A DNA stretch of 64,000 nucleotides from Trichoplax adhaerens (lineage: Eukaryota; Animalia; Placozoa). The DNA is taken from the NCBI RefSeq assembly GCF_000150275.1, contig NW_002060947.1:294695-358694 (forward strand). Reading direction: 5' to 3'. The first letter of the stretch is position 1, and every line of letters begins with the position of its first letter. The translations under genes were made by a program, and so were the position numbers. Of this stretch, positions 24,385 through 64,000 are shown in pieces. The notes below the pieces were generated by a model. The model ran no database searches. It worked only from the letters and a program-made list of their open reading frames with translations, and was not told the DNA's origin.

Positions 24385-27300
24385 ATGGATAACTGTACTA
24401 ATTGCTATCTCAATTTAAATCTTTCAAAATTAAGCGACACACATGAACAACTAAGTTCCCGCATTAGTATCATCATCGTGAATTTGATGTTCTTGTTGTT
24501 GGGATTAATATTCAATCTAACTCTTTTCAATTACTATATTTGCAAGAAGAAATTGATGACGGTTACAGAAGAGCAAATTGTTAGCTTGGCAATATCTGAT
24601 ATGCTATATATCATGATTGGGTAAGTTGATATTCATTACTAACTGTTAGTCAATTTAGTTATATTTCAGAATTCATTAATTATAAATCATGGAAAACTGA
24701 TTTAAGATTAACATAAAGGAGTTTAGGAACTCAAATGGCTTTTAATAAATGGGTGGTTATATCAATTTTTAAGCTATTTACTGCCATGGCCAGCTTTATT
24801 TGATTCTCATTGTATTAATTAGTGATTATTTCTAATACTTAAAATTGGAAGTAATTATTATTTTATACCCCTCATTGTGAATTAGAATCATTCTAGCGAG
24901 TCCATCAGTTAGGAAGGAAACTCTTTTTATAGGAAGATTACATACGGGCTTCCAATGTAAACTAGTAAAACATGAAATGTGCAGTAACCTTAGCAATTTT
25001 TACAGAGTAGCTAGTACTTTAATGTTATTTTTCTAGCCTTCTTTGGACAGTTTTCAACTACTGATGATGTCTAATGCATGAAATGATGAAACTGACTCTG
25101 ACTCAGCTAGATATACTATGAGAACATAAGTGTAGACTGCATTTAAAGTTGATGGAATATTATCATGAGTACATCGCCATTAAAATTTTAATAGTTCCAC
25201 GAAATAAAGCAACATATTTTAGTTTAATGGCGTTAATGCTTGAAATTAGTTCACCGTTACTTATAACAAACAAGCAATCAATTTTTTTATGATCTTCTAA
25301 TAGTTCTACGGTAATGTTACATGATAAGTGTTACATTTCACAAGAGCGAATACAAAAAGCAGTTGTTTTATATTTTTACTCTGAAAAATCAACATTTACA
25401 ACACATGCGCACATTTTATAAACAAGAAATTACTATAATTTTAATTAATGAAAGACCACGCTGTCTGACTAAATCAGAAAATTGCTATTAAATGTTTGTA
25501 TTACACCTATTGATGAGAATTTCAATTTTTCACCTAACTATAATTGTTATTTAAGCACGTATATTACAATATGGAGCATTCTATGTAATTGCTCAGCGAT
25601 CGATAAATTTAAAATTATTATTGTAAATTTTTTCTCAAAGGCTTTGATGATGCATCATTATCTCATGAACTGCAATACTATGAAAGGGAAAGCGAAATAA
25701 TTTTAGTTCTTACATTTACACAGCTACAAGTAATGATTAGTAATTGTGACAGTGTTATATACTGTATTAGAGTAGAAATATCTATGTTAGGATGACCCTG
25801 TTAGCCTATCCTTATTTAGTTAACTTCTAATTTGGATATACTGTATTCTAATATAGCACTGACTTTTTATGACAGTGACACTTATACACATACTGAAATT
25901 AATAGCCATGATAGTGAATGCAAATCATCTACTTACAGTTCGAATTATTGTGATTGTAATTTACTTGCAGTAGATTGTAAATTATCGTGGAAATGTTCCG
26001 TGATAGGACATGTCGTAATCTGACAATTCTGTTTTAGTCATCACATGTTTATGTTCGTAAATACTGTTGTCCGCATTAAGGGAGCAGTAGCTAAACTTAA
26101 TATATAATTCAGTAAATGATTCCAATGTTAATCGTATTAACTATGACCCATGAACTATTGAGGAATATTACATAAATGCAGTATATCGTGTAATAAAGTA
26201 GATTCTCAAACTTAGTGTTTAACGTAAAATACGAGGCGTTTAAGTCTTTGTGTAGTTTGCTAGTAGAGCAAAAGTGTTTGTGATAGTGCAGATATCGTTC
26301 CTTGATACGTGGTTCAAGGAATTGACTTATTGATCGTACATTACGTTATCTTGTTGCAAAGCTATTTTGTGACAGTAATATATAATAATCTTATTATCTT
26401 ATTGAAGATTAATGCCATACCATCATAAACTACTAATCTACACATTGGGATGTATTGTAAGATATTATTAAAGAATTAGCAAGCTTCTTCTATTACGAAA
26501 AATATCAAGATTTGCTTTACAGTAAATTATGTATCGATTTAAGAATTATTATGAACATTTTATTTGTTCATATTAAGGTGTTCATTATGTATTATTCAGC
26601 AGTATGAATAACATAATTTTGTATACTAATAGTTGTAAATGCTAATAATCTTATATTTTATATACGCTCTTTATTTTTGTAGGTCTGGCACCCAATTACT
26701 AATAGCATTTGCCACCATAAACAATCAATTACCTATTTTCTTATATGATTCAATCGCTTGTCGACTTCTTGCTGCTATTCAGGCGTCGTTGGCCAAAGTT
26801 AATGTCTATACTATGACATTGATTTCGGTTACCCGTTATGCAGTCATTGTTAAACCTATTAAATATCAACCCTATCTCAAGCCAAGATATAATCGGATTG
26901 TTCTTGCCATTATTTTTACCCTATCCTTTGGCTTATCGATTTTGCCTGTTTTTCAGTTATGGGGAAAATATCAATATTCTAACCAAACTGGTTTATGTTT
27001 TCCACTATCGACGGCAGAGAATGATCCAGCTGTTGTTTCTTATGAAGTTACCATGGATTTAACATTTATATTAATACCGTCTGTTATTATGTTTTTTAGT
27101 TACTTTAAAATTATTTTACTTTTACGTCTAAGCCGACGCCAAATTACAAGTTACCACAACAATAGTACGAAAAGCATTAATGCAAGCAATTCTACTAATA
27201 CATTGTCAGCAACTTCATCGATTGCAAAAGTCGTTTCTTTTACCCTTCAAAGTCGTCTATCATTTCATCGTAAAAATAGTGTTAGCTTTCGCTCCAGCAT

Positions 27301-27553
27301 TCGCCAACTTGAATATCGATTAACCAAAACGATTATGCTAGCTTTCATTGTCTTCTTAATATCTTATTTTCCCCATTCAATATCATGTACACTTGCACTG
27401 TTTGGTATTACCATATCATCGACAACATCAACAATCCTACTTCATTTAACATACGTTAATGGTATACTTGGTCCGTTAATTTATATAACTAGAAGTGCTA
27501 GAGTGAGACAGTCGTTACGGTGTAACCGACGCATTATTCACGTTGCACATTAA
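24385..27553 (+). CDS. Class A (rhodopsin-like) orphan GPCR, 2 exons (24385-24620, 26683-27553), about 368 aa
   Basis: Exon 1 encodes TM1-TM2 (IFN...LAISDMLY) and ends GG|GTAAGT. The acceptor TGTAG|G is in frame with ORF 26639-27553. Motifs: ACRL (C3.25), TRY in place of DRY, ECL2 WGKYQY...C, TM6 SYFP, TM7 ILGPLIY. Confidence 0.9.
25745..26374 (+). mobile_element. Solo-LTR-like element, family A, inside the GPCR intron
   Basis: Termini TGTGACA...TGTGACA; perfect TSD GTAAT/GTAAT. Confidence 0.92.
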
Positions 27554-28634: not shown

Positions 28635-31600
28635 TTAAGCATTCTTGTTATACAATATAGATTGAATTAATTCTTTGACGTCCGAGATGGATAAGTAATG
28701 CAACCGTTGAAGAATGCGCTTTTCACTAATTCCAGCTTCCATTAATTTAGCTGTATTCCCGCAAAGAAGAGCGTCATCCAGGTCATGATTCCAACCAATA
28801 AAGTCTAGAGTGTAACGATTGGGAAATTAATCAAAGATCTAGTCTATTGGATTTTACTATCAGTAGACAAAATCTAATAACTTATATACCATCTTTCGTT
28901 TTGTTATGCTTTAAATAATAACGTGTGTCATCACACTTTCCAGACAAAGCACGATAGACGCATGCCACTCCTGCCTCCGCCATTTGCATACTAGCAGCAA
29001 GAGCCTAAATTATTGGATATTCCAGCTTATTCTATAGATTAACTAATTCATATTCTGTATCGATAAAAAATAATTGCATTTAATTATTAGATAGTGGTCA
29101 TTTCTTAGCTAACCTTGATTTCAGCGTTGGTATCTTTTCTCATATCTTTCTCCCACATGCACTCTATAAACATAGTATATGCAATAAATGTGGCCAAAAT
29201 TATGAGTATCGACAGTATTCCTTATTGATTTAATATTTGGAATCAAATTTTAAAGTAAAATGCTCTCGCGCTTTATAAGGTTTTAAAATGTAAACTACTT
29301 AAGGTGTTACATGTGCAGTTAACTATTAATTAGTTTTCTTTCATAATACCATGGTGTTTCCGCATTTCTTGTACTTGATCGGCAACGCTATGTGCAGAAT
29401 ATCTGTCGCTAGATTTTGCATCCCGTAGTTCATAACCGAAATCGCAATAAAAGTATTTGCTAAGGATTTCCTCGTTGATTTGATTACTAAATTCCAAGTT
29501 TACATTTTGATCGCCAGTTGAAATTTTCGGAATATCAGGATCGTCGTTTTGTTGATTTAAATTTTCTTCGTCAATAAAAACGATTTGTTTTCTATGATTT
29601 TTCTCATCAACTGCTGCGGATGCTTCATTATCCAATATCGTACCTTTACAAAACTTATCGTGGTTATCATCACCATTATTTAATCGAACTTGATCCTGTA
29701 TTGTAACTATTATATTAATGAAAGATTTTAATAACTAATATTCACAAGCTTTACGATACTTTTACTAACAATCAATTATCTGCTGTTGTTTATGCTTGCT
29801 CGATAATGTTAGTAAATCATCAAGTGATTCGCGGCCATCCTTATCAATATTATTCAGGTACGCTAGCGAATAAAAGGGTATAAATGGAATTTCGTAATTT
29901 ATGATTCTCTTATGAATTAAATCTACCATCAATCTAGATAAATATTTTATAGTTACTTTAGCAGTAATATTGATATATTAAAGCAAACCTGAATTTTTTC
30001 CATCATCACTGTTAATTTGTATATTTTCATAGTCCAAATCACTGTTATATGCTTCACCTCCACCGACAACAGGACATTCATCCTCACCTTTTGCTGGAGC
30101 CAGCATGCCATTTTGGCTATTAACTTGTGGTAAAATAACTTGACTATCGTATTCATGACCAACAACACGGTCATAAAGGGTAGGTTCTGGTTCATTTAGT
30201 ATAATTTCCTCTTCCTGACACTCTTTATCATTTTCGTTTTCAGATACAAGATCAATTACTGGCGGATGTGAATTTTGTTCAGGCTTGCGAGAGGAACAGA
30301 TTGAAGCAACTTCAAAGCTTGTGTCAGTCCATAGTGTGATACTTGGCTCTCTTTTTAGCCGCTTGTTGCTTCCGTTGCTGATGGATATTTTCGATTCACC
30401 TTATAATCAGCGAAATAGCTGAATTATGATATGTTAAAAATATCTATGTCCTCATGCTATTATTAAGATAACATACTTTGATGCTTCATGACTTCTACTT
30501 GTAACTCTTTCTGCGATTTTACTGCACGACGATAGTGCTTTCGCATCAACTTCTTCTTGTAATGGTCCTTCATCGATTGCCACGAATGACAAGTTATCTA
30601 CATACACAGTTCATTTTTCGTATTAGAGCTATTGACAAGTCTATTATTAATGAATACGAGTATTGTACCGTATATAAGCATTACAAAGATTGAGAAGGAA
30701 ATAAAGTTGCTACCTTTTTCTTTTCCATCTTTTTCCAAATTTCATTACCACCAGCTGGTAATGCAGGACTACCATAGTTTTCAATATACTCTAAGATAGC
30801 AGCATCTTCGGCAGTAGTGTAAAATAAACGACTGAATAGAAAATACAACGATTATTTCCCATCTTATCTTACGTAATAAGCTATAGACTTTTATTGTATT
30901 CGAGTGCATTGCTTTCTTCTCAGTCATAGTAGTTCTTAGAAGTATTATCACTATACCGTATATCGTATGTATATTCATGCGCTAAACTGGAAAGCATGAT
31001 GTGGATATACATGTTACGAATACTGATCCTGGATGCAGAAATGTTTATCATAGTATACATTCATCTTCCGCTATACTACATCTCTAATAGCTTTACACAA
31101 ATTTTCTTCGACAGAATCTACCGTGTAACATTAGTAGCTATTTGTAAGATCCTTCTTGAACTGGTATTGCTTTCTTTATATTCTTAGATATGACATAACA
31201 ACTGACCCTGTCGATGATTTCTTAGTGCAAGTTTCAACCGCTCCTGAACGACTATCCGGACACCTAAGGAGAAAAAGTCAATTTGATAGTTTTGATAACA
31301 AAGTCTCTACTTGTTAATTCAATAGTCTAACACTTACATATAACTTTCAATGTCTTGAAGAGCATTATTGGCTACAGAATCGAATATGAAACTTGCGGAA
31401 ACATAACCAAGAGGCGTTAGAGTATCAGGTTCAGCAAGTCTAAGTAAACAGTGTTACACGTACAATTGTCAATAATTTCATCATCATTCTAAGTATTTAG
31501 ATACAAGCTTAACAACACCAATGTTGATAAAATTTGATTCACAGCGACAACAATATCACTAGAATAGATAAAGTCCCTATTGCAAACATAATTTTAACGA

Positions 31601-47686: not shown

Positions 47687-48784
47687 CTATAAATGAAAGG
47701 AATTCGATGGTTCTGATGTCAACCATGGACCAATTACATTTTTATTGCGAGGATGGCAGAATTTAAAACACATTATATTTCTTCGATAATATTCCCATTG
47801 CTTAATCACTAGGTTGCGTAACCGAGAGTTAGAAGAGATATAAATAATTGGATTAACAGCACAATTTGTATATGGTAGCCATACGAAAATGATACCTAAA
47901 ACATCCACTTTGTTAGCAAGTTGATTAGGAGGATTAATGGTATATATGAGAACTTGTATAACTGCGGGTAACCAACATAAGATATTAGTACCAACAATTA
48001 AAGCCGTTGTACGTACTGTTCTAAGCAAACTTGCTTCTTTGTTTCCTTTAATATCTATCGATTTTTGTTGACTTTTTACCCATTTCTTATATGCAACGCG
48101 AAAAATAAAGAGATAAGCAATAGCTACCACAGCTACGCTATTTAAAATTGATGCGGCTGAAATTACATTAAATAGGTAATTATCTTGATAATCGTGTAAG
48201 TCAATACCACAGTAATAAGTACTATTTGTATACCTATATCGTCCTAAACCATAACGTTGTAATGATAATAAGGGTAGCATAGCTACAATTGATGGAAATA
48301 GCCATGACGTACTAATCATAAAAGCTGTCCTAGATGGTGTTGTTATACGCTCATATCGGAAAGGCCAAAGTACTGCTACAAATCGATCCATCGTGATGGT
48401 AATGCTGGTATTTAATGAAGCTCCAAATATGATATAATTAATGTATGCTGATATTTGACAAAATGTATCATTAAATAGCATTTTACCTTGAATAGCCGAA
48501 TAGGCCATAGGTGGTAAAACAATTATTGCTGTTAATATGTCTGCAACGGCCAAATTTGCAATCAAAAACGACGATGTTTTGTGCAAGCTACGGCATCTAT
48601 AAATGGCATAAAAGATATAGAGATTGCCAGCCATTGCAGTAGTCATGATAATAGCGATAAAAGTTACTAAAATAGGTAATAAAATAGCTAAGTCAGTGTC
48701 ATCGGAGTTATTGAAGGAGTAGTCGTGGGAAATTTTATCATACGATGAATTAATATCCATAGTTGGTCGACTTAGGTTATTCAT
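47687..48784 (-). CDS. Class A (rhodopsin-like) orphan GPCR, intronless CDS, about 365 aa
   Basis: Canonical motifs: GN (TM1), LAVAD (TM2), DRF, SW (TM4), CWLP, NPIIY, plus N-terminal glycosylation sequons. The first in-frame ATG is at 48784; the ORF track starts at a GTG. Confidence 0.95.
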   Translation of the reverse strand: MNNLSRPTMDINSSYDKISHDYSFNNSDDTDLAILLPILVTFIAIIMTTAMAGNLYIFYAIYRCRSLHKTSSFLIANLAVADILTAIIVLPPMAYSAIQGKMLFNDTFCQISAYINYIIFGASLNTSITITMDRFVAVLWPFRYERITTPSRTAFMISTSWLFPSIVAMLPLLSLQRYGLGRYRYTNSTYYCGIDLHDYQDNYLFNVISAASILNSVAVVAIAYLFIFRVAYKKWVKSQQKSIDIKGNKEASLLRTVRTTALIVGTNILCWLPAVIQVLIYTINPPNQLANKVDVLGIIFVWLPYTNCAVNPIIYISSNSRLRNLVIKQWEYYRRNIMCFKFCHPRNKNVIGPWLTSEPSNSFHL

Positions 48785-51547
48785 GCTGGTATTCACGTTG
48801 GATTCGATGTCTTAATATTTCTTTTCTATCATGCTTTAGTCAAATTCTTGGATTAAAATATGTTAAAATCTAAATGATATGAGTTATAATAAATACTCAG
48901 AGAGAACAGCGGATTGAAAATCGTTCGCTTAGTGGTTTTGGCTTTTCTCCTTTAGCTTATTGATTGGATGTATAAATTAGTTAGTCTAAAATGGAAAATC
49001 AAATTGATCAGGAGGATAAATTATTTTAAATGTTGCTTCGTCACTGATACAGAGATTCTATTACATTATGTCTGCGGAGGGTTGTATTCATAGATATTAT
49101 AATCTGTCACCCGGTAAAAGAAATAAAATCATGAATGGGTACACAATAATACCTTTACTTTCACAAAGGTACAATATATTGAGGGCTTATTTTCCATTAG
49201 AATAATTGATCGACTAAAAATGACGTGAGCGTTTTAGTTATTCCTATTGTAACAGCAGAAATCGCTTCTATTATGAATAAAATGATCTTACCTATAGAAA
49301 AGAAACAATAAATACCTAGTTAGTGGCAAAAAGAGGGAAAATAACTATTATCGCATAGTAGTAATGCAGTTTAATGCATCATAATAGCAAGGACAAATGA
49401 AGATAATAGTAGAAAGTATTGAAGTCTAATAGGACAAATTGTAAAGTCTAAAGATATTTGAATAGAATCCTGCATCCGCTACATGACGTATGCAGCGCAA
49501 GCCTATGATCAACAGTCTATTTCTTGAAATTAATTGCAAAACAATGACTTTATTTAGACTAGTCCAAGAATATCCAGGATGTAAAGATGAATAAAAGCGA
49601 TGTTATACCCGTAATCCATAAAATAATATTGTTATGCGCAGTCGCATGTTAAATATTTATAGATATTTATAAAATTAATAAAAGGAACGAAAATTAGAGT
49701 AGGCTAGCTGTTTCGTTACTATCTCATCATTCTGTATGATCAAACTGTATATTTCGGTTATCTAAAGTTAGTTAACTTCTGTACTATGAGCACTCATGAT
49801 TTTACGATATTTATCATAAAAGGAAACTAACATTAATCAGTATGTAAGAATTTGCTATAAGTGTTTATAATCGCCGTAATCAAAGAATAGTTTAGTCACA
49901 ATACTGCTTCGGTCTTAATCTTTAAGTTAAGTAAACCAGTCTTCTGTAAGTAATATGCGATAAAAATATAATTAATGAATGATAATTATAAATATATATA
50001 TTGTATATATAACATATATATTATTCATGTCTAAGCAAAATTTCCAGCAGTTTATTTCGCATTTTCATAATCCATGAAATTTTAATTTACTGTTTCTAAT
50101 AATACTCATTAAAATTGATTGTTTAAAACGATCAGGATGTCAAACTGAAAAAAGTTGCTCCAATCTATAAAATTAAATAAATTTTGAACGCATAACAGTT
50201 GAAAGTTAAAGGTCGTTGATATCTACCTGTAATGAAAATAAGATATTGTGTTATTCTTTTAGCTTCATAGCTGGGCGTAAATCATTCCAATAGAACATTA
50301 AAAAGCATAAATGAATATCGAACGGAATTTGAATAGCAATTTAATCAAATTATCATTTTACAAAGATATTTTAAATTTAAAATCTAATAACTCATATTGA
50401 ATGCCATTCTTCACTTTTTAATAGTGTTATTTGCATCGAAAATTGAAAGGAAAATATAAAAAAGTGAAAAATTCAATTCTTAAGCAATCAATGCATGAAT
50501 TTTGCTCATTAGCCATACGAATGGATGTATTGTAGTGCACAGCATATTGAGAATTTATCAAGTACTTTACAACCCGTAATATAATGAAGGATAGTTCAAT
50601 ATGGATTTATTATCACTGCATTCATTGTAAATTTCTGATTCAGATTTCTAGTATATACTCGCGAATTTATAAATCATGATGCTGAAAGTTATTAAAGATA
50701 CGTTCCATTGCTACAACAAGAAAACATCCAATGTACCAATGCAATGTTGATTATTAATTAATCTTGTAAGACAGAATAGCATAACTGTGAAGTGATATAA
50801 ATAGCAGATTTTCTTTTAATTTAACCTTTATTCCAGAATTAATTTGGAAGCTATTTAGTTCAAAGTAATACATTTGCCTGTAAAATATAGAAATGATAAA
50901 ATTTCAGGCTATTGTTATGATTTCACTTACCATTGCAATATTTAATTTATTCTTTCAAAAGCATCTTTTTGGTTGAAAATCTCCAGCCTGTAGAATGGAT
51001 CTTAAGACTAACATTATATATATTGTAGTAAAATTAATTCGTACTTTCAAGGACTCAGGCAATAAATAGATTCAATAAGTCGTATTTTCATATACCTTAT
51101 ACTTTAGCTTGGTCTAAATAATAAATATAGCTTCTACAAAAGAATCTGCACTTTTTATTTGAAGTTAGTAAATTAGTAATCTGTAAGATACCATAATTCT
51201 GATTTATATTAACCTTTGCTTTTATCATTGTGGTCGTTAAATGAAGAGTTATTTACACTTTTCATTCAGACACTAAATGATTGATTTACTTGAATCATTA
51301 GATCTCAATCTCAAGTGTCAATAGCGCCTCCAACCAATAAACTTAATCCAAAATTTTAGAGTAACTATTAATATAAAAATCAAATTTATTCCAGTAATTA
51401 TAAGAATACATGTCTATTTCGTAAAGAGCTATACCTCATTGCTTAAATTAAATCTCGTTAAACAACGTACTATTTAATTGCAAATGCCGCGACATCTTTA
51501 GCAGCTATAGAAGTACAGTATTAGCATAATTACAGCTACTCCAGTGT

Positions 51548-51980
51548 TGTCACAAACCAGCTTCGTGACAAGGATAACGTAAAAAAAATCTCTAAGTTAC
51601 TATAGTCTTCCGGAATTCAGTATCCCTTAACTACCTCACAAGAATTTAGACGCCTTTGATTCTACGTTAAAACAACTAGACAATTGAGAACTGCGTTATT
51701 CAACTATCTGACGGGCTTATATACCCTTCTACAGCAGCTAACATTCACAAGTCATCTTATAAAAATACTTAGGTGAGAACATCTACTAACTAGTTTTTCA
51801 CAGTCGGACTACAATATGTCCATTCACAGAATTATTTCAGAGCACATTGCAGTACATCACTGTAACATATTTATAATTAGAATAATTCTTATTGTAAGTA
51901 ACTAATTGTAATATATTATCACTATAATATATTAACCAAATTTAGATAGCTATTTCTTCACGGTAGTTCGTACCGTGACA
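51548..51980 (-). mobile_element. Solo-LTR-like element, family C (433 bp)
   Basis: Termini TGTCACAA...TACCGTGACA; perfect TSD AGTGT/AGTGT. The first ~35 bp resemble the family A end, and TATATAAG lies on the minus strand at about 51716-51723. Confidence 0.85.
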
Positions 51981-52460
51981 AGTGTATACAGTAGTAAACG
52001 CCTTTTACTCTACGCATAGGCGATAAAAGAGTAAGTATTTGGTGAATAATGTTTTTATAACAAGTAATACAATAAAGACAGACAAGCATTACATTAAATC
52101 GCCAGTGCTTAATACGTGCCTAGTGAGATAATATAATGATAAGCGTTATGTACTTCCATCAATAGGTATTAAAACTTAAATAAAAAGAACTATGACGATG
52201 CCATTATTAAATTATATCTTGATATTATTTCTCTTCTTAAACGTTGATACGCTTGACTATACGCAAAAAATATAGGTAAATTAATGGTAGTTGGATAATT
52301 GAATAACAGGAATACAAAGTTATGGGGAGAAAAGACGAATTAAAACCAGGATAGACTAGCAAAATATAGTTTTAAATTTACGCGAAATCTTTTTAATTGG
52401 CACTATTACTCCACAAATTTTGACACCCATGGTGGTATAAATTAACTTTTATTGCGATCA

Positions 52461-52670
52461 TCTTACTTAAAATAACAGAAAAGTAGTAAAGCTACATAAA
52501 TTGAATTTAAATACACGGACTGTACAGTACAGTACTTTTGTACAGCATACAGTACACGGATAACGGTAAAAAGTTACTGAACCTCTGACAGGTCTATCAA
52601 ATGGTAATACTATCTGTTAAATGAGCACATTATCGTAAACCGTCAGCAAAGTGACGGGAGTTTGCACTAG
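52461..52670 (+). mobile_element. Non-autonomous Helitron-like element
   Basis: The 3' hairpin CCGTCA-GCAAAG-TGACGG (52640-52657) is followed 9 nt later by CTAG|T. A candidate 5' end A|TC lies at 52461, with an internal (TACAG)n-like tract. A second copy is at 63456-63630. Confidence 0.75.
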
Positions 52671-53167
52671 TACTCCTAATTCATAACGATCAATGACTGT
52701 AGGTATAAAATTAAATTTTAACTTGAAAAATTATAAACTGCTCGTAATTACCAAGCAGTCTCATAAGACACTAGCTTAGATACGCATCAGCTATGAGATT
52801 TCAATATAAGATTAACTGATTACGTAAATTTATGCAAGTAAAATACAATTTTTACATTTCACCAAATGTTTAAACTATAATATGATTAGACTACATTTCA
52901 GTAGTTTAACTTTGATACTACTAGATATGTATGATATTCAAATTTATAGCTCAAATTATATAATGGAGTCATTAGTTTACTAGAGCATTGTTGTATTGAC
53001 CTAAAAATGAAAAATGAAGATCGATATCTATTATCTTTATTACTTCACTTTCATAGAACTATTCTCTTCTTAGTTTGTTGATTTATTAGTAGCACGATTT
53101 CAAATAATAAAGCAAATAAAATTATGGATTCATTTACTGAACAGAATCATAGGCATAAAGAATTTTT

Positions 53168-53783
53168 TGTTCGTATGAGTGTTATTTATCTTAAGAATTA
53201 AATGCTATATCTACAGTATGCTGCATTGATTACTGTAACGAAACTTAGTATTGTGATCGTAGACTTTTAGCCATGTTAGTAAGATGTACGAAAGCACGAC
53301 TTTCTATATTTATCTTAAGATGTATTTGGTAGCTCGCTACTATGGACTGCAGTGGTAGATTCTATGCTATAGTATAGATGACTATATATAGCAAGATGTT
53401 GAGTTACTATTAAGGCTAGAGGTAAGAATAGAACTGTAATCCATATATTAGGATATGCTTAGTTTACCGTACTTTGACTGCCAAGAATAATATCTACGAA
53501 AATATTGTACTTGTTCCCAAATCGGATTAATGATGGTCCGCTGTAAAATGTTGCCACTAATAATAATTTGACTATGCGTAAATTAAAGTAGAATAACGCT
53601 ATGCTGATTGTGGCTGTGACTGGTATAAAATGAATATACGCTGGCAACTTTAGACTATTCAGTTCGTTCGCTCTAGAAGTTCTTCAATAGTTGTATTTGG
53701 CTAGAGTAGAGCTGTGTGCAGCTAGCCTTTGCATTAGATCTAATAAAGTTCTAATTTTCTACTACTTGGGAATTTTCGTGATT
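53168..53783 (+). repeat. Old dispersed repeat family B, copy 3 (opposite orientation to copies 1-2); boundaries approximate
   Basis: The reverse complement aligns with 9030-9647. It starts TGT, ends TTTTCGTGA and contains TATAAAA then AATAAA. Confidence 0.65.
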
Positions 53784-54611
53784 GGATTTTATCATAGTTA
53801 CATATAATTATTTAACGAAATTTGATATTGATAACACCTAAAATCGATAAATTCGCTATGGTTATGTACTTAAGAATTCTAAAAAATGTTTACAATTAGC
53901 TATCTAGTAAGCACCCATCTTCCTTTATTGCAGTCTTATAGGGAGAATGAATAGATGAAGAAGAATACTTTAAGAATTGCTTTGATGTTAACAACAGTAA
54001 TTATTGACATTTCCTTTTTGTAACTAATTTATTCAATTATCTGCTCCTACTGCAGAAATTCTTGATATTTCAAATGTAAAGGACAATAATATTGCAATAG
54101 GCAGCTATAAAATTGAAAAAGTACACTATTTAAATTTAAAAATAACTCTATAAGAGTGTCAACTATTATTAATTGCTCATCCTTCTACCGGAAAAAAACT
54201 AATAACTGTATCTTACAGTTAGATTAGTAATTATAAGAAATTATAGTATAGGTAAACATATTAGAGATTCATCATAGCGAATATAAAATGAAGTAACAGA
54301 AACAGTAAAATAATGCAGTTATATCTTTGATAAATACTCGCATACAATGAAATATGATGATATTAACTGTATCATATCCAAAAAATATTATAAAGGTACC
54401 TTGATTAACAATAATATAGCGTTCCTGCTTCTTTCACCACAGAATTAATTTACAATATAGTCTTCGTGTAATTACTACAGTTAAATGAATTAAAAAGACG
54501 AAAAATAGTCTAAATTATAGATTTATGATCACCATTAAAGGCCGATTTAAATACTTTCACCGTAATCGAATGTCAATAAATAAAGTTTCCCAGGCATGAT
54601 GTTTACTAGTA

Positions 54612-55162
54612 TGTCACAATCACGTTTTTGTGGCATAGTATCTCTACTTATCGTGTAAAACTTAGCTAAGTACGGTACAATCCCGACACTGAACAAGTGC
54701 TACTGGAACTACGCTTCCTATTAGAATACCAACTTCTCGGGTGTGGGACTACACTTCTTTGACCGTCACTAGGTTACTTGATTACACAAGTAGTTAAGCC
54801 TAGGCTTTTGAACAGATAACTATCACTACAGTTTATTCTCTTCTATGCCTTTCTCCTCGTCCACATTACATCATAGTTAGCCTTTATATACTTTCTAAGA
54901 TATTTACTATTTACATTAATCTCACGTAGGAGATTTCACAACCATAACCTATCCAGTAATAATCTTACAACACGACTACAAATCGTGTCAGCATAAACAA
55001 CTCTCTAACACAAAGGTTGCACAGCATCAATATTTATATTTCCCTAGTCTATCCTCATATTCGAATACATACAAAATAACTAAGGACAGTTGATCATCAA
55101 AACACCTTACTAACAAACACCATAACACTTCTAACTCATCACGGCAAAAAGGTACCGTGACA
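54612..55162 (-). mobile_element. Solo-LTR-like element, family D (551 bp)
   Basis: Termini TGTCACAA...TACCGTGACA; perfect TSD TAGTA/TAGTA; minus-strand TATATAAA (about 54890) followed by AATAAA (about 54835). Confidence 0.85.
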
Positions 55163-55535
55163 TAGTAATTCATTATGTTTCTTTCATCTTTCATAATTCA
55201 AAATTAAAAGTATATTTGCGATTTAGAATAGAGGTGACCTTGTCCTAAAATAATGCTATTTACAGGAAGTAAGGCCAAGATAATAGCTAGGCATTTTATT
55301 ACTCATTTTCGATTTTGTCTACTCTTCTTAGTTCTCAATTTTATCCTGTTATTACGCACGAATAGTTTACATGCCTATTTAAAATAAAATATGAAATCAC
55401 TCATTAGTGCTTTATATATTAAGATCAAATTAACGAGAGTATTATATCGTTTATACGTTTCTTTTCGAATTTCTTTCAGGAATTAGATCTAGGCATCATT
55501 ATCTGTGAACAACTAGCAATGCGCTTCTATAACTG

Positions 55536-56166
55536 TGTTACAGTGTTATATACTGTATTACAGCAGAAATATCAATGTTAGGATAATTCTATTAGACTAT
55601 CCTTATTTAGTTAACTTCTAATTTGGATATACTGTATTTTAATATAGCACTGACGTTTTATGACAGTGACACTTATACACATACTGAAATTAATAGTTAT
55701 AATAGGGAATGCAAATCATCTACTTACAGTTCGAATCATTGTGATTGTAATTTACTTATGCTAGATTGTAAATTATCATGGAAATATTCCGTGATAGGAC
55801 ATATCGTAATCTGACTATTCTGTATTAGTCATTACATGTCTATGTTTGTAAATACTGTTGTCTGCATTAAGGGAGCAGTAGCTATAATTAATATCTAATT
55901 CAGTAAATGATTCCGAGGTTAATTGTATTAACTATGACTCATGAACTATTGAGGAACAGTATATAAATGCAGTATATCGTGAAATAAAGAGAATTTCTCC
56001 AACTTAGTGTTTAACGTAAAATACGAGGCGTTTAAGTCTTTGTGTAGTCTGCTAGTAGAGCAAAAGTGTTTGTGATAGTGCAGATATCGTTCCTTGATAC
56101 GTGGTTCAAGGAATTGACTTATTGATCGTATATTGCGTTATCTTGTTGCAAAGCTGTTTTGTGACA
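55536..56166 (+). mobile_element. Solo-LTR-like element, family A
   Basis: Termini TGTTACA...TGTGACA; perfect TSD AACTG/AACTG. Confidence 0.92.
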
Positions 56167-56596
56167 AACTGGTTCAATATAGGTTATATATTATTGAAAA
56201 ATGATAATTTAGTAGGCTAGTCAAATAATTTTTTCCTTTATTATTTTGTATTACCTTAAAGACGGATTAAAATATCTTAAAGCAATAAATTATATGATGA
56301 TAATGTGATCGGTGATCAGTACTAGATATGGGTGATGTAATTGCAGAGGTAGCTTCGGTATGTGTTAATTGTTTATACTAACTGTCATTATTTATCGTGG
56401 CTTTACAATAACTTTATAAAAGAATATTTTTCATTATGGAAGTTAAACATAGAATTTACTCTATGTAGAACTGGAGACAATATGTTAGTGTTATAAAAGC
56501 TCTTTTAATAATGATAGTTTAATCAAAGACTGTAGTGTACGGGTTGTTATTCCTAGATTCGTAATCTGTCAATTCAAAATTCTGAATTGTTAAAAT

Positions 56597-57025
56597 CGAG
56601 CAAATCCCTAATGTGGCACAAAATAGTCAACATCGTATAATTGACTTATAACAACTAAGTTTATTAACGTCCGTGTATCGTCCGTCGTAGATGAATTCTA
56701 ATTTCTTCTCCTCATAATAACAGTCGAAAATAGCTAAGATAAACCGGATAATTGACTTAGCCTCCACGATAACAGTTCTATACAACTTATACAAATTATC
56801 ATCAATTGCTCCTCTACACAGGAGGCATCAATCACATTAGTACATTACTTAATAACCTTAATTAGTATGGCTATCAGCTACGGCCTTATATAGCGCATAC
56901 TAAATCTTTGTCGTTTCATCATACTAGCCTTATCAACACTTACTTTATTAAGACTTACAGTTCTTTACACCTACTATCAGTGTATTACCTACACAAAACT
57001 ACTGTAATTAGCTAAAATCGCTACA
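56597..57025 (-). mobile_element. Possible degenerate solo LTR (about 430 bp)
   Basis: Has TGTGGCA near the left end as in families D and E, ends ...ATCGCTACA, carries a minus-strand TATATAAG at about 56885 and shows the same C/A skew. There is no clean TSD. Confidence 0.35.
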
Positions 57026-57405
57026 AAGACCTATCGAATGTAGCTTTTAAAATATTTTTGTCTTTACTACTACTCAGACTTAATTTTTGTAAAGTGATTT
57101 CGAGCTGGTCTACATATCGAGCAGTTTGGATAAATTCATTCATTTAACACGTATTTTTGTAATGAATTTCGTTTACTGTCATATTCGCTGACGCTTTAAC
57201 GCAAATTTATTTAATTGATATTCGCTGTTAATATAATCAATCGACTCGATTTGTTACGACTCAACCGTTCTTACTGCAGCTTTCCTAATACTTTAAAAAT
57301 ATTTCAAATTGTACCAATGCTAATAAAACCGCTTAAAATGGTTGATTGATTCATGATTCTTAGTAACCGATATTGATATATGGAATTTAATCCTGTCATT
57401 TGTTG

Positions 57406-57447
57406 TATATCTGAACGTGACCGTATGCGAAATCGGTCACTCCATAT
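57406..57447. repeat. Short palindromic element, copy 2 (inverted relative to 16096-16143)
   Basis: TGAACGTGACCG-TATGCGAAAT-CGGTCAC; the spacer is 9/10 identical to the reverse complement of the copy 1 spacer. Confidence 0.7.
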
Positions 57448-58692
57448 CGACCGTTTCCCGAAAAATAGTTTAATTTGCGCAATTTTTGCTCAAAAATACA
57501 TTCTCTCCCAGGTAAAATCGAAACTGAGCTAGTTAATGGATAGGTGTTTACGCGTATGTGTTTACTATGGTAGCAGTGGTGCCATTTTAGACAATATGTA
57601 AGCATAACCTTTGAAATAGTTATTTTCTTGTATTTAACTGTTACTCTCACAAAAACTGAACTTTGTAATACAAAGGATCGTTTTTTACATTATATTTGCC
57701 TCATTCAATCAATTCGTAGAGACAGTAATTTCAAGTTAGTCATCTCTTTCCGTCTACATTAATTTATAATCTAATTCTATAGCTATTCTGAAGCATATCA
57801 ATGAAATAAAGTGATATTAATTTGTCATAAAGTAGAACCATTGAATAGGCATGCCATAAGTATTTAATTTACAAATCGCTGTAAAGATTATGTTAAGTAC
57901 AATTGATGATATTCATGCAGCTGAAACTTGAGCAAAATTCTTCTTTAGATCTAACTATATAAAAATATTCAAACATAGCTATACTTGCTTGCTACGTCAT
58001 GAATTATGCCTAAGTCTATTTAACTTTTATTTTCATAAATTTAAAGGTTTAAAGAAAAAATTCCATCGTGATAATATAAATTTTTTCATTACATATAAAT
58101 CTGTCATCCCTTGTGTTCGAAAAGTGTTGGGCACCATTACCGAAATAATGTGATATGTTATCATAGCGTCAAAAGATTTTATTAAAATGGACTAATAGCC
58201 ATGTTTAATGATGACACCAACAATTAGATTTTAAAACTCATGATATGACCAAAATAATCAATAAATTTTTACTCATTATGCAATACGAATGCTAACTTTT
58301 ATTCAATGATTTGGCAATACAGTGAATGGAGCCGCATATCTAACAAATGGTTTCGTTGTAGTGATAGTAAGTTAATTCGTATGGCTAAGGACAATAAATT
58401 ATTAGCATAAGAGATTATTCTCTATTGCTTAAAAATGTGCCCGTTTTCATTTTAAAATTTACTAATAACAATTTACTGAAGAAAACTAGGACTGTAAGAT
58501 AGTTTGTTTATTCATGATATTAAGTAGAAGCCAAATATTATAAATTGCGCACTGAATTATAATGTCTTGCTTGAGCTATTAAAAATGGTTCAATCTGAGG
58601 ATTAATCAACTAAATTGCAGCGTCACAACACTTTAAATTCTAGTTAGCAATGACCAAATTAATACTGAATAAATAAAGAGAACGGCACCATG

Positions 58693-59790
58693 TTAATATC
58701 TCATGCACCTAGATAAAGCTACGAAAGCTTTCTCTAACTTTCTAGTGTATATTCTAGAATTTTTTCTTCCCGTAGCTATTTTGGATTTGGCAGTATTATA
58801 GCCATTCAAACTGGCTGTGTATATAGACAAGATTTCATCGCACAAAGATTGCGTGCCTGTAGTTACGGTTCCTGTACAGAATCTGGTTCTTAAATTATGA
58901 TAAGACTTATATAGTGCATAATTTTCATTTCGTTCTTTGGTAAATTTGGATATATTTTTTCGTGCAAGATAGAGCATTCTCCGATATTTACGGTAAGTTC
59001 TCAGTTCTTGCTGATAACTAGCACACTTTCTTCGCCCAAACATTCTAGACAAATCCTTTGCCTGTAGCGAAAATAAAAGGAATTGAGGCCCGATTAACGG
59101 TAATATTTCCGCTTAAGAAATAGATATTTAATGAATATCTTGAACGTACAGTATAAATTTGATTCCTTTAGAAAATAATAAATTATGGTCATAAATTATT
59201 ACAGTTGGAATCATAGACGCAATGAAATAGATTATACAGCAATAAGATGGAATAATTGTTGTATAAAAATATAACAAAAAGTAATATCCTTATTCTGCGT
59301 CGCAAATATCATGCCTACATAAAGTATCTAATCAAACTCTTAATTTACCCCAATTAGAAGGTCTTCCTGATGCTTATTTTCACTATCACTTAGATCTTCT
59401 CCGAAGTTCTCAACTTCATCATTCATTTCAGCTTCTTTATTTTCTGTTGTTTCTGGCTCACGGTTTTCTTTTTCAATTTCAGCGCTATATTCATCTTCGT
59501 CCTCATCACTTTGATAAGAAAAATAAAGACCAGTATACTTAAGTAATGAAATATGAAAGAAACATTGTCAAATAGGTGCATCATCCTTGTACTTCTGACT
59601 ACCTTTCTTGTGACCCGAAGCCGCGCTTTACTTCATTCCATTTCACATGTGGTATATCTTCGACTGGTTTTTCACTATCGGTAAAATCATAATTCCGTTG
59701 GGATCCTTCTGGTTCAACCACTGCTGCCATCGATATAACCAGAAGTTGTGCCAAAATTGCGAAGATGCATAGTCGAGAATTTAAAGACAT
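58693..59790 (-). CDS. Secreted preproprotein: signal peptide, acidic pro-region, cationic 4-Cys C-terminal domain; 3 exons (59790-59603, 59508-59349, 59061-58693), 238 aa
   Basis: Exons join in frame through GT-AG introns (188+160+369 = 717 nt). Signal peptide MSLNSRLCIFAILAQLLVISMA; exon 2 is acidic (SDEDEDEYSAEIEKENREPETTENKEAEMNDEVENFGEDLSDSENKHQEDLLIG); exon 3 is R/K/Y-rich. Confidence 0.85.
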
Positions 59791-59913
59791 GATGCCTATA
59801 TCAGTATTACTGAAAGAATTTCAAAAATATGTTTTTCCTTAAGAAATATTATCCTGCAATGTCCTTTCTATAAGATAACGATGAATTGAAGTGCTACTGC
59901 TCTAAATAGTTCA

Positions 59914-59921
59914 TTTATATA
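59914..59921 (-). promoter_or_regulatory. Candidate TATA box of the secreted preproprotein gene
   Basis: GGG-TATATAAA on the minus strand, about 125 bp upstream of the ATG, with an initiator-like TCAATT about 25-30 bp downstream. Confidence 0.55.
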
Positions 59922-60970
59922 CCCTGTACTCTCGCATTAAAGTATGGACGTTCATGGCTCATTAGGAATGTACTTATAGTCAGTACTCCACCTTAAATTA
60001 ATGATGCTTTACAAGGAAAAACAGGTTAACATTTTGTCTTCATTAAGATTACTTTCGTATTTTTTGTAGATAGCTGTGAATGGTAGCCATTATTTTTTAC
60101 TAAGAATGCAGGCTTTTGTAATCTTATTGCAGTATGAATTGAAGGGTCATAATTGCTTTCGATTTATTGTTAAATGATTCAACGCTATATAGTTGATCTT
60201 CTTATGACGAAATTAGACTATGCAAGTCATTTTGGTCTACTCAAATCAGCAATGTAAGCTGCATCATGAGGTAAACTTAAATCGCAGTGCTTAATTGTAT
60301 TTTCACCAGGACATTAATATTATATGTATCAGAGTATGATAACAATATAATAAGTAGCTTTTAAAATATAATATATTCACTATTCCAGGTGAATCCAATG
60401 TTGTTATCAAATCATGGCAATAAGGCGGTTTTAATATAGCATTAGTGACTATAATTGAATGGCTATGAGTTTCTTGATGCTTATCTTTCTTATTATTGGA
60501 TGGTAGGCATGCTTTCTATAAATCTTTTTCACTAGGAGTTCTGGCTTTGCAAATACCCTATAATTATCACTCAACAATACCATAACCACTAATAAGAATA
60601 GCTTTATAATGTCTCTTGAATAGTCGCCATGGCGTCAGTTAGGTAAATGGCTCGATCAAAGAATATTTCGATAGGTAAATGATGCTATTATCCAATGGCA
60701 AAATTAACTGGGTCGGCATGACTTATCAATCATTGCTGCTAAATTGTAGAAACAGGTACACAGCTATGTAATAATAATTGCTACAGTCTGAATCTTCAAG
60801 TTACTAAAAGCTAAAATAGTAGACGCCAAAACAAGTGATTGGATAGTTTTCCTATTTCTTTAATTATAATTAGAAAAATATTTAGAAAGTTCCTGTTCTG
60901 TCGATGTTCAAGAACTTCATTCATTTTAGATTACATTAATTAATAATCTTATGTCCAATAAGTACAACGG

Positions 60971-61556
60971 TGTCACAACCCTCACTTGTGGCAAAGGAAA
61001 GTAAAGAACTCTAGTGTAGTTACTTAAAACTTGGGCTATTTCTCCTAGTACTTTCAGTTTCCATGAGAGAAGTATTTGAGAACTCGATTTCTCGGCTGAT
61101 CTCCACAGAAAACTGACTAATTATTACACTATTCTTCACGATATGAGTCTTGCCGTTCTTGAGCAATTACTAACTTTATTCTACAAACACACGCGCTTAA
61201 ATAGGTTTCTACAGTGAATTCCAATATTAACGAGTGAGAATTCATACTTCACAAGTTACATTAATTAGTATAATACCATTACTAAATATACATGTCGATA
61301 TTCTCAGACTTAGATAGCTACAAGCTATCAGGTGTTAAGACGCTTAACCTTTGTTCATATACGGCTCAATTTTTAGAGATTAACACACCTTACGAACCTA
61401 CAGTAAATTAACTGTTAACAACTTATATTTCTATCTCATTTCTACCGTCCTATTATCAGCTACAAACGCATTAAACATAGCACATAACCTTATCTTATCT
61501 ATTCATAAGCATTCATTAATCAACAGTTACTTAATTAGTAATGGCGTACCGCGACA
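60971..61556 (-). mobile_element. Solo-LTR-like element, family E (586 bp)
   Basis: Termini TGTCACAA...TACCGCGACA; flanks AACGG/GACGG (1 mismatch); minus-strand TATTTAAG followed by AATAAA. Confidence 0.8.
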
Positions 61557-63208
61557 GACGGCTGCAGTCAGAATTTGCTCCTGATTAAATATTTATGCTT
61601 GCTTGGATATCTTTTATTAAACATATAATAAGGAACTCGTGTAAGAATCTCTCTTAAGATAGTTAAGAGTGAAAAATACGTTGAACTACTCATTCGTGTA
61701 ATAAATTGTGTTTGATAAGGTACGAATTAATGCACTTTCTTGTTGTTTTAATTAATGCGAATGGTGCTATTATACAGATTATTTGCTGATTTACCAAAAA
61801 ATAGCTATAATTATAACTATCCGTACAATGGCATATGAACACTATTGACTGTATTCGTGGGATTGATCACAATTAAAAGATTAATACACAATTATTAGCC
61901 GTGAAATCTGTTTATTCAAGTCAAGGTATTAAATTAGATTGAATTTATCACTAGCTAATACTATATGTGCAATAGATAACACGTTTTGGCCGAAATACTT
62001 CATAATCTTCATTCTAAATGAAGTATTTAATGCTGCTTCGGTTACTTTGCTGATGAACTTTATAATTGCAATTTAGCAATTTTGTATCGCACTGACAAAA
62101 ATCTATCTTTTAATTCTCGGTAAACAACTTCACTCTATCTTCTTTCTGCCAAGATAATAGGGCTCATTAGGAATGAGGAACAAATTACTGATGTGTAAAG
62201 TAGAAAAGGAGATATTATTATATTTTCTGTATAATTAATTATTAATCCTATTGGAAATATACTCGAGATGTACTGGTATCATCATTTCACTTGAATACAG
62301 ATGAACACTACCGTTTTTAAGTGAACGATTAACTCAAAGTATTCGTAAATCCCTTTTATTCAAGTTTACATTTTGAGAAGCTATCGTTGCGGAGTTGGGT
62401 AAACAAAACCTAACACTATTCTCCGCCGCTAATGATGCTTAATATATGGTAATATAAGTAATAACATTAAGTATTCAAGAACTTAAGACAAAACGAAATC
62501 AAACGCAGTAAAATACTCATTTAGTGAAGTATCCAATTAGATTCTATTAATAAACAGTTTATAAAGTGCAATAAAGTGTATTCAAAATATTAAAACTAGA
62601 ACTAGTGTTGCAGGTAAATTTCACTTTATTACGTAAAATTGGCTCACCTAAATCTGTCGAAGACTATCTACCTTCAGTCTACAATTGTCTCGCCTATTTC
62701 AAATAAACGTATGAATTATATTAAGTTGGTTATACTATCTGCCATAAATATCACCTAAAAATAGTGAAGATACCAATAAAAACTTATAACCAATGGTATA
62801 ACTTGGGCTATTTCATACAATCTTATAATTCTGGCCTTAAGCTAACTCGAGGCTGCATTGCATGAAGTCTAGAATTATATTTTCTATAAACCTCGATTTT
62901 ACTTAATATTTAAAAATGCACTTAGTTGTTTTTAATAAGTGCTTGCTTTAAGAAAGCTTTCAATCATCTTAATAGAATTGATTCTTTTAGTTGTTTTCTT
63001 AATTTATGCACTCTTTTTTAAATAACTAATCATCCCTTCTCCAAATCCTGTTTTAGTCGATTTCAGACGCTTAATCCATTAATTGAAAGCAATTTATTTA
63101 CTTTCTACAAAGATCACCGTTAATCTATTGATGAATAAATCAAATCCTTTTCTTACTAACAAGGATACAGTAGCTATTACTCCAGAACACTACAAATAAA
63201 TAGCCCAC

Positions 63209-63738
63209 TGTTACGGTGTTATCTCACCATTTGAATAGATTTACGTAATCTTAGCTAATATGGTAGAACTGATGATAACTTGATGTTGTTGTTTACTAAT
63301 TATTGTCGATATATGACCATATTATGTTAAATGGATTGTTTGACAGTATCGGTAATATGTAATAATGATTACTATGACTTAATAGAATAATCTTATACTA
63401 TCTCTTAATCGTAATCATGTGTAATGAGGTATCGAAGTTGTTCTTGTTATTGTTACTAGTGCAAACTCCCGTCGCTTTACTGACGGTTTACGATAATGTG
63501 CTCATTTAACAGAGATTCAGTAACTTTATACCGTACCGTGTAGACCTGTCAGAGGTTCAGTAACTTTATATCGTGTACTGTGTACAGTACTGTACTGTAC
63601 TGTAATGTACTGTATGCTGTACAAATGCACGGTATATAAGTCGTCTTTACGTAAAATAAAAAGGGCGTTTAAGTTATAAGTTTGCTTAAGGACTTTTATC
63701 TTGCGTTTCCTTGCCACAAGCAATTCCGGTTTGTGACA
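63209..63738 (+). mobile_element. Solo-LTR-like element, family F, containing a nested Helitron-like insertion
   Basis: Termini TGTTACGGTG...TTTGTGACA; perfect TSD CCCAC/CCCAC; TATATAAG at about 63633 and AATAAA at about 63655. Confidence 0.85.
63456..63630 (-). mobile_element. Non-autonomous Helitron-like element (5' end unclear), nested in the LTR
   Basis: Reverse complement of about 52515-52670. It ends CCGTCAGTAAAGCGACGG-GAGTTTGCA-CTAG|T on the minus strand and carries a (TACAG)n tract. Confidence 0.75.
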
Positions 63739-64000
63739 CCCACATATGAGTTTATTGGCAAGTTTATACCAGTACATTTACTCCTGGAATATGGATATCC
63801 ATTTCGCCTTCATGAAATTTACTACGAGGAAGTTACCGAATGATCATCATCCTTAGTCGTAGTTGTTAATTTTAATACTTTTGATCGGTAGAATGATATC
63901 AATCAAAAAGATTACTAGAAAGTCATCGGTAAACATTCTTTAATCTAATTTTCTGTTTAAAAGATACTTGAGCCACTCTAGCGTAACGATTAACTCAAAT

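What the first reader, a model, noticed from the sequence alone, without database searches (positions are those of the whole stretch)
58693..59790. Candidate new secreted effector: acidic propeptide plus cationic, disulfide-stapled helical hairpin
Seen: a 238-aa precursor whose exons map onto functional modules (signal/leader, strongly acidic exon 2, strongly basic exon 3). The C-terminal ~115 aa have four cysteines spaced C-x48-C-x11-C-x44-C, i.e. two near-equal R/K/Y-rich arms around a short T/G-rich loop. Established: a signal peptide, acidic pro-region and cationic mature part is the layout of self-neutralised antimicrobial and toxin precursors such as Hydra arminins and frog dermaseptins. 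Inference: the arms form an antiparallel helical hairpin locked by C2-C3 at the turn and C1-C4 at the ends. This would be far longer than typical AMPs and could be a membrane-lytic, prey-lysing or immune protein. The predicted mature start MFGRRK recalls, from memory, the FFGRLK start of the placozoan AMP trichoplaxin. I recognise no known domain.
Basis: partly seen in the sequence, partly recalled or inferred. Interest (0 to 1): 0.8.

Follow-up and report, generated by a model that had tools for sequence, protein, structure and literature searches.

The report
Placozoan cationic helical-hairpin defence precursor
This is a spliced, expressed placozoan gene for a protein with an acidic front half and a basic back half that is predicted to fold into a long two-helix hairpin, and it likely acts as a secreted defence protein of a little-studied, immune-like epithelial cell state.

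Summary
The gene is real: three minus-strand exons give a 238-aa frame, and both introns are spliced out in 6 of 6 RNA-type runs laid. The only relative found is Trichoplax sp. H2 TrispH2_009858 (98%). There is no Pfam or PDB sequence match. The layout is a likely signal peptide, an acidic pro-region (net -22) and a basic C-terminal part (+20) with Cys spaced 48-11-44. Structure models give a two-helix hairpin; a homodimer model passed its controls (0.66 vs 0.41). The disulfides are compatible with this fold but not shown. A published atlas puts the H1, H2 and Cladtertia orthologs in one conserved 'epithelia_unknown' module rich in SH2/STAT, Death and LITAF genes, apart from AMP1 and AMP3. The tripartite layout is already known in Trichoplax (trichoplaxins, arminin-like AMP1-4); the hairpin mature domain is not. 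Verdict: new variant of a known kind, likely a host-defence protein; activity untested.

The parts
59914..59921 (-). TATA box
   Evidence: pattern found; lies 27-34 nt upstream of the 5' end seen
59791..59887 (-). 5' UTR; likely transcription start at 59887
   Evidence: run X12 contig ends at 59887 with a loose end that I recognise (recalled) as a template-switch adapter; an X10 contig also reaches 59887
59603..59790 (-). coding exon 1 (residues 1-63): leader and first part of the pro-region
59725..59790 (-). likely signal peptide, residues 1-22
   Evidence: most hydrophobic 15-mer of the protein (hydropathy 2.6); helix 3-22 in the model; SignalP not available
59509..59602 (-). intron 1, 94 nt, GT-AG, phase 2
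   Evidence: joint in 6 of 6 RNA-type runs
59349..59508 (-). exon 2 (residues 63-116): strongly acidic pro-region, net -19 over residues 64-116
   Evidence: low model confidence up to about residue 102
59062..59348 (-). intron 2, 287 nt, GT-AG, phase 0
   Evidence: 287-nt skip in 6 of 6 RNA-type runs; a minor intron-retaining contig in X5 and X6
58693..59061 (-). exon 3 (residues 117-238 and stop): cationic domain, pI 10.3
59026..59037 (-). Gly-Arg-Arg-Lys (residues 125-128): likely convertase cleavage and amidation signal
   Evidence: sequence; Gly-dibasic sites occur throughout the placozoan precursors printed in PMC12013895 S8; the H2 allele keeps a basic residue; cleavage not shown
58879..59025 (-). 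predicted helix 1, Cys129 to residue 177 (net +10)
   Evidence: heptad test p=0.06
58840..58878 (-). Cys178-x11-Cys190 Thr/Gly-rich turn, uncharged
58699..58842 (-). predicted helix 2, Cys190 to residue 237 (net +7)
   Evidence: heptad test p=0.005
58792..58929 (-). neutral turn-proximal head (residues 161-206, net 0), holding nearly all of the predicted dimer interface
58057..58692 (-). 3' UTR, at least 630 nt
   Evidence: contigs of X5 and X12

Best explanation
This spliced placozoan gene encodes a 238-aa protein with an acidic front half and a basic back half, which is likely a secreted host-defence precursor whose acidic part would mask a cationic two-helix hairpin until it is cut off. Likely steps: (1) the leader sends it into the secretory path (inferred). 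(2) Cys178-Cys190 and Cys129-Cys235 staple the hairpin (fold predicted, pairing inferred from spacing). (3) The pro-region (-22) neutralises the C-terminal part (+20) during storage (charges shown, binding inferred). (4) A convertase cuts at Gly-Arg-Arg-Lys 125-128 and frees a 13-kDa rod of about 110 residues (inferred). (5) Two rods pair through their neutral turn-end heads (predicted), presenting two polycationic open ends that bind anionic microbial surfaces or polyanions and damage or clump the microbes (inferred). A published atlas places its orthologs in a minor epithelial module; reading that module as a STAT/IRF-linked immune state is my inference.
For: Gene and splicing. Charge balance and segregation. 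Hairpin: AlphaFold2 on exon 3 alone gave helices 2-61 and 68-121, mean pLDDT 76.7; the full-length model has the same helices; the Atlas's own model aligns to long hairpins at TM 0.57-0.74; helix 2 heptad p=0.005. Homodimer: score 0.66, best of 3 controls 0.41, contacts agree at least 96%, pLDDT at least 87. That mark was reached by 21 of 30 microbial homodimers and 0 of 23 monomers; in eukaryotes by 17 of 29 homodimers (animals 7 of 16; only 1 of 7 without a solved relative) and 0 of 30 monomers. Residues 135-158 have hydrophobic moment 0.47-0.58 with strong positive charge. Context: orthogroup OG_10291 has 3 rows (H1, H2, Cladtertia H23), and all 3 are in multi-species module gc005 with membership 0.788, 0.945 and 0.974 (PMC10580291 Tables S3/S4). 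gc005 is enriched for SH2 (p=3e-11), TPR_12, Death and LITAF, and its modules list STAT-, JAK2-, IRF1/2-, PARP14-, APAF1- and CMTR1-like genes. Precedent: a tripartite Trichoplax precursor gave trichoplaxin-2, active at 0.25-2 uM (PMC7436000).
Against: No activity, secretion, cleavage or disulfide has been shown. Only 2 of 5 models of exon 3 and 1 of 5 full-length models were confident, all folded without an alignment. The dimer pass may reflect generic coiled-coil likeness. The atlas authors call gc005 only 'epithelia_unknown'. The gene's own H1 module (37 genes) has no STAT; the STATs are in a sister module. gc005 is also enriched for aspartic proteases and synaptobrevins, so it may be a secretory or stress state. 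No strict STAT site lies within 58400-61500. I saw neither the H1 nor the Cladtertia protein, so conservation of the Cys and the charge is untested.
Confidence: 0.5

Rival explanations
1. It is a secreted signal (a cytokine- or growth-factor-like ligand) of a JAK-STAT-linked epithelial response. The hairpin dimer would form a four-helix head that engages a receptor, the basic ends would tether it to sulfated glycans, and the acidic pro-region would act as a latency or folding aid.
For: Orthologs share modules with JAK2-like (H2) and STAT3-like (H23) genes. The predicted dimer buries a neutral head and leaves the basic ends free. There is no membrane-inserting segment.
Against: No receptor is known. 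The fold is a two-helix hairpin, not a single-chain four-helix cytokine bundle. Near-exact charge neutralisation is more typical of cytotoxic precursors (recalled). One module (H1) has no STAT.
Confidence: 0.17
2. It is a membrane-lytic, prey-lysing or anti-predator toxin.
For: The layout is that of self-neutralised cytolytic precursors; the N-terminal half of helix 1 is amphipathic and basic; placozoans digest prey externally (PMC12013895 abstract).
Against: The orthologs are not in the lipophil or gland modules. There is no hydrophobic hairpin. Colicin and Tc-toxin rows in the fold search are 5-9% identical coiled-coil stalks, tied with dynein and PI3K p85 at Z 10-11, below the tool's bar of about 13 for helical folds.
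Confidence: 0.12
3. It is a structural or storage protein of mucus, glycocalyx or secretory granules: a Tyr/Arg/Lys-rich rod that cross-links polyanions, with no killing role.
For: 28 Lys+Arg and 11 Tyr in 122 residues; rod-like dimer; epithelial module.
Against: It is not in the main dorsal or ventral epithelial modules, and the module's named genes are signalling and defence-like rather than matrix genes.
Confidence: 0.13
4. It is mainly a peptide-hormone precursor: the product is a short Phe-amide peptide ending at residue 124, and the hairpin is a carrier.
For: One Gly-dibasic site (125-127) after Phe, preceded by acidic residues, as in the placozoan precursors of PMC12013895 S8.
Against: There is a single copy and no repeats. 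The gene is not in a peptidergic module. Neither the gene id nor 4 short motifs of it appear in the supplement that lists the mass-spectrometry peptides.
Confidence: 0.08

Closest known systems
Trichoplax arminin-like AMP1-4 (Ta 55945, 56030, 60631, 64402; PMC12013895)
   Same: Same animal group; 150-250 aa; signal peptide, acidic N-terminal region and basic C-terminal region.
   Different: They end in Gly for amidation; this protein ends Met-Arg-Tyr. AMP1 and AMP3 are in the ventral-epithelium module, this gene in gc005. Its H1 ortholog has another id (wf_g4966). No sequence match was found.
Trichoplaxins (trichoplaxin-2, PMC7436000)
   Same: Tripartite precursor from Trichoplax with a cationic helical C-terminal part.
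   Different: Trichoplaxin-2 is a 20-residue linear peptide without Cys; here the basic part is about 110 residues with four Cys. The trichoplaxin-1 sequence was not seen.
Hydra periculin-1 and arminins
   Same: Anionic N-terminal and cationic C-terminal regions; periculin has Cys in the cationic part (PMC11767717).
   Different: Periculin has eight Cys and is a germline product; arminins yield alpha-helical C-terminal peptides. No homology was detected.
Eosinophil major basic protein precursor (recalled, not checked here)
   Same: Similar sizes: leader, acidic pro-piece of about 90 aa and a disulfide-bonded basic domain of about 117 aa, toxic to microbes and parasites.
   Different: Its mature part is a C-type lectin fold, not a helical hairpin. 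An analogy of layout only.
Generic antiparallel coiled-coil hairpins (colicin E receptor arm, YscO/FliJ, PI3K iSH2)
   Same: Overall shape: Z 10-11, rmsd 3-5 A over about 120 residues.
   Different: 4-12% identity, Foldseek E at least 0.04, unrelated functions. Shape only.

Membership tests
Trichoplax arminin-like AMP precursors (PMC12013895) | 150-250 aa with a signal peptide | tested here: met
   238 aa; hydrophobic leader; SignalP itself not run
Trichoplax arminin-like AMP precursors (PMC12013895) | highly acidic N-terminal and basic C-terminal regions | tested here: met
   residues 23-125 net -22; residues 126-238 net +20
Trichoplax arminin-like AMP precursors (PMC12013895) | C-terminal glycine for amidation | tested here: not met
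   ends Met-Arg-Tyr in the window and in H2
Trichoplax arminin-like AMP precursors (PMC12013895) | expression with AMP1/AMP3 in the lower (ventral) epithelium module | tested here: not met
   AMP1 and AMP3 are in Tadh.bisque4 (gc001a); the orthologs of this gene are in gc005
Trichoplax arminin-like AMP precursors (PMC12013895) | sequence homology to AMP1-4 | tested here: inconclusive
   only the H2 ortholog was hit; I could not confirm that AMP1-4 are in those libraries and did not see their sequences
Trichoplaxins | short linear Cys-free C-terminal mature helix | tested here: not met
   basic domain of about 110 aa with four Cys, against 20 aa for trichoplaxin-2
Trichoplaxins | N-terminal likeness to trichoplaxin-1 | not testable with these tools
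   the recalled hexamer is in 0 papers of the library; the original paper was not seen
Hydra periculin | eight Cys in the cationic part | tested here: not met
   four Cys; definition from PMC11767717
Alpha-pore-forming toxins (colicin or ClyA type) | hydrophobic membrane-inserting hairpin or tongue | tested here: not met
   best 19-residue hydropathy in exon 3 is 0.49
Class I/II helical cytokines | structural match to a cytokine bundle | tested here: inconclusive
   the monomer is predicted as two helices; low-confidence single-sequence models and crowded helical hit lists cannot exclude a match
Placozoan neuropeptide precursors | repeated peptide cassettes flanked by dibasic sites | tested here: not met
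   one Gly-dibasic site and no repeated cassette
Antimicrobial peptides and proteins (functional class) | kills or inhibits microbes | not testable with these tools
   needs an assay

The most novel reading that the evidence does not exclude
Placozoans have a conserved, unrecognised JAK-STAT/IRF-linked immune state of epithelial cells (atlas module gc005), and this protein is its secreted output: a new disulfide-stapled hairpin dimer that acts as a cytokine-like alarm signal, a microbicide, or both, in an animal far older than vertebrate interferons.
Probability: 0.2. Interest if true: 0.85.

Novelty: new variant of a known kind. Interest (0 to 1): 0.5.

Why it matters
If it is antimicrobial, it adds a new scaffold to animal host defence: a 110-residue stapled hairpin dimer, where the known Trichoplax peptides are about 20 residues. 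It also gives a single-copy marker, shared by three placozoans, for an unexplained epithelial cell state whose gene list looks immune-like. That makes it testable whether one of the simplest animals has an inducible STAT-linked epithelial defence, and what that state secretes. If it is inactive, it is one more lineage-restricted secreted protein.

Tried and rejected
No whole genome is held for this window, so a genome-wide paralog search was not possible. Within the window tblastn found no paralog (best other E 0.54). A DNA-like run shows flat background depth (about 93) over the gene at 80% likeness, so there is no close second copy. Homology searches found only the H2 ortholog or nothing: exon 3 against 215-2000 aa (1 of 68 candidates) and 67-214 aa (none); the full protein against 130-417 aa (1 of 179); phmmer on 1.84 billion representatives (self only); Pfam (0 families); PDB sequences (best E 0.52); ESM Atlas feature search (blank twice). 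Fold searches gave only generic hairpins, and no cytokine or antimicrobial fold was among the rows shown; this absence excludes nothing. An IRF-type motif at 61050-61061 was rejected: 11 of 100 shuffles gave one, and it lies in a high-copy repeat. No strict STAT or NF-kB motif was found in 58400-61500. RNA editing at 59060 was considered; intron-retaining contigs appear to share the letter, so an allele is more likely (inferred from contig ends). Positive selection was not supported: 7 of 9 coding variants change a residue, and 78% is expected by chance. Contig depth was not used as an expression level. Earlier findings of this scan: none in 3 answered look-ups. No paper's main text names the gene or its accession; searches on Trichoplax with antimicrobial, STAT/interferon or JAK/cytokine terms listed no study of it (listings only). 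The original arminin paper is not held.

Full report
1. Observation. The finding lies on the minus strand of an AT-rich window (GC 28-37%). Splice-site inspection and translation give exons 59790-59603, 59508-59349 and 59061-58693, with GT-AG introns of 94 and 287 nt and a 238-aa product. Exon 2 has 23 Asp/Glu against 4 Lys/Arg. None of 20,000 shuffles reached the observed charge segregation.

2. Transcript. Of 22 listed runs I laid 7. Six RNA-type runs from 5 studies show both joints; only one of these is on record as RNA. The seventh behaves as DNA: one unspliced contig over 57411-60434 at background depth. The intron-2 joint is printed at 59056/59344, five letters from my canonical cut but with the same 287-nt length. 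Contig lengths fit the canonical cut with a G>A allele at 59060 (Ala117Val); this is my inference, and the frame does not change either way. One contig runs through all three exons to 59887 and ends in what I recall as a template-switch adapter. A TATA box lies at 59914-59921.

3. Relatives. The only hit in four protein searches is hypothetical protein TrispH2_009858 of Trichoplax sp. H2, 238 aa, 98% identical over exon 3 (cluster of 1). The window is therefore placozoan. Pfam, PDB sequences and Atlas features give nothing. No paralog is in the window, whose long open frames include three rhodopsin-family GPCRs.

4. Fold. AlphaFold2 on exon 3 alone predicts helices 2-61 and 68-121, mean pLDDT 76.7, with 2 of 5 models confident. 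The full-length H2 protein gives a leader helix, a low-confidence region to about residue 102 and the same hairpin, with 1 of 5 models above pLDDT 60. Helix 2 has a clear heptad with Cys190 and Cys235 in core positions (p=0.005); helix 1 is weaker (p=0.06). Arms of 49 and 45 residues differ by about one turn, so the pairs 178-190 and 129-235 are geometrically plausible, but I could not read distances from the models. Fold searches return only generic coiled-coil hairpins. A two-copy model of residues 124-238 scored 0.66 against a best control of 0.41, with at least 96% shared contacts and pLDDT at least 87. The mark was reached by 21 of 30 microbial homodimers and 0 of 23 monomers, and in eukaryotes by 17 of 29 homodimers (7 of 16 animal; 1 of 7 without a solved relative) and 0 of 30 monomers. 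It supports a dimer but does not show one, and may reflect likeness to solved bundles. The interface (Ala165, Leu166, Ser169, Leu173, Phe177, Leu189, Ile193, Ile196 and neighbours) lies near the turn.

5. First, the charge is polarised along the rod: residues 124-160 are +11, 161-206 are 0 and 207-238 are +9. The turn end is a neutral head and the open end is polycationic. There is no membrane-spanning segment, so the intact hairpin is a poor candidate for an inserting pore former. Second, Phe124-Gly-Arg-Arg-Lys matches the Gly-dibasic cleavage and amidation signal seen throughout placozoan precursors. The mature domain more likely starts near Cys129 than at Met123. The trichoplaxin resemblance could not be checked. 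Residues 23-125 are -22 and residues 126-238 are +20, close to exact neutralisation.

6. Cell context. From PMC10580291 I read sections 9 and 11, passages, and parts of Tables S3 and S4 (S4 was cut when stored). Orthogroup OG_10291 has 3 rows: T. adhaerens H1 wf_g4966, H2 TrispH2_009858 and Cladtertia H23 PlH23_010500 (I saw the H2 row and the other two). All three belong to modules of the multi-species group gc005, labelled 'epithelia_unknown'. AMP1 and AMP3 are in the ventral-epithelium module instead. The first 30 of 142 enrichment rows for gc005 include Asp proteases, SH2, TPR_12, Synaptobrevin, Death and LITAF. I saw 29 of 51 members of the H2 module (JAK2-, APAF1-, EIF2AK4- and CMTR1-like genes among many unnamed ones), all 37 of the H1 module (LITAF, TPR-COR-Death, LRR; no STAT) and the first 7 of the H23 module (synaptobrevins, STAT3-like). 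Sister gc005 modules hold STATs, IRF1/2, PARP14 and NB-ARC genes. In Nematostella, IRF2 and STAT5A homologs mark poly(I:C)-activated immune cells (PMC13319465, passages). Reading gc005 as an immune-like state is my inference; the passages I read do not say so. Neither the gene id nor the motifs I searched appear in the peptide table.

7. Mechanism. Most likely (0.5): a stored, self-neutralised precursor is cut at the Gly-dibasic site and releases a stapled hairpin dimer whose basic ends bind anionic microbial surfaces. Shown: gene, splicing, charges, Cys spacing and published co-expression of the orthologs. Predicted: hairpin and dimer. Inferred: secretion, cleavage, disulfides and activity. 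Rivals are a cytokine-like ligand (0.17), a structural polyanion binder (0.13), a prey-lysing toxin (0.12) and a peptide-hormone precursor (0.08).

8. Comparison. The tripartite layout is already described in Trichoplax: five arminin-like precursors with C-terminal Gly (PMC12013895; abstract, passages, section 7, part 1 of section 6 and S8 seen) and trichoplaxin-2 (PMC7436000, passages). This gene is not AMP1-4 by id, lacks the terminal Gly and sits in another module. The fifth arminin-like gene is not named in what I read, and figure S7 is an image that I could not see, so overlap is not fully excluded. Periculin has eight Cys (PMC11767717, passages). PMC12466427, PMC9495127, PMC6321704 and PMC11747439 were seen as passages only and added nothing on this gene. 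It may work like these precursors but is not a member of any of their families on the features tested.

9. Verdict. A real, expressed, placozoan-restricted gene, and a new variant of a known kind. Interest 0.5: the layout is familiar, the mature fold and the conserved immune-like cell context are new leads, and nothing functional is shown.

Noticed in passing
PMC10580291 Table S3, module group gc005: A conserved 'epithelia_unknown' module group in all four placozoans is rich in STAT/SH2, IRF, Death, TPR, LITAF, PARP14-like genes, cathepsin-D-like proteases and many unnamed genes; it may be an undescribed immune-like epithelial state.
   Followed up: partly
window 59060: All 6 RNA-type runs laid appear to carry A here (Val117), while the window and the H2 protein have Ala117; inferred from joint positions and probably an allele.
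   Followed up: partly
window 58752-59772: At least four haplotypes of the gene appear across the window, the H2 record and the runs; 7 of 9 coding variants change a residue and none touches a Cys.
   Followed up: partly
window 59062-59348: A minor intron-2-retaining contig is present in runs X5 and X6, with a partial one in X8.
   Followed up: no
window 51400-57470, 60970-61560 and 63080-64000: High-copy repeats (summed depth thousands to over 100,000 against about 90 in the DNA-like run) flank the gene; one holds a perfect IRF-type motif at 61050-61061.
   Followed up: partly
window 7528-8406 (+), 26639-27550 (+), 47690-48811 (-): Three long open frames matching rhodopsin-family GPCRs (PF00001).
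   Followed up: partly
window 29333-30400 (-): Two neighbouring acidic open frames (134 and 140 aa) without a Pfam match, probably exons of one gene.
   Followed up: no
window 59623-59628 (-): A second dibasic site (Lys55-Arg56) in the pro-region could release a 32-residue N-terminal peptide.
   Followed up: no
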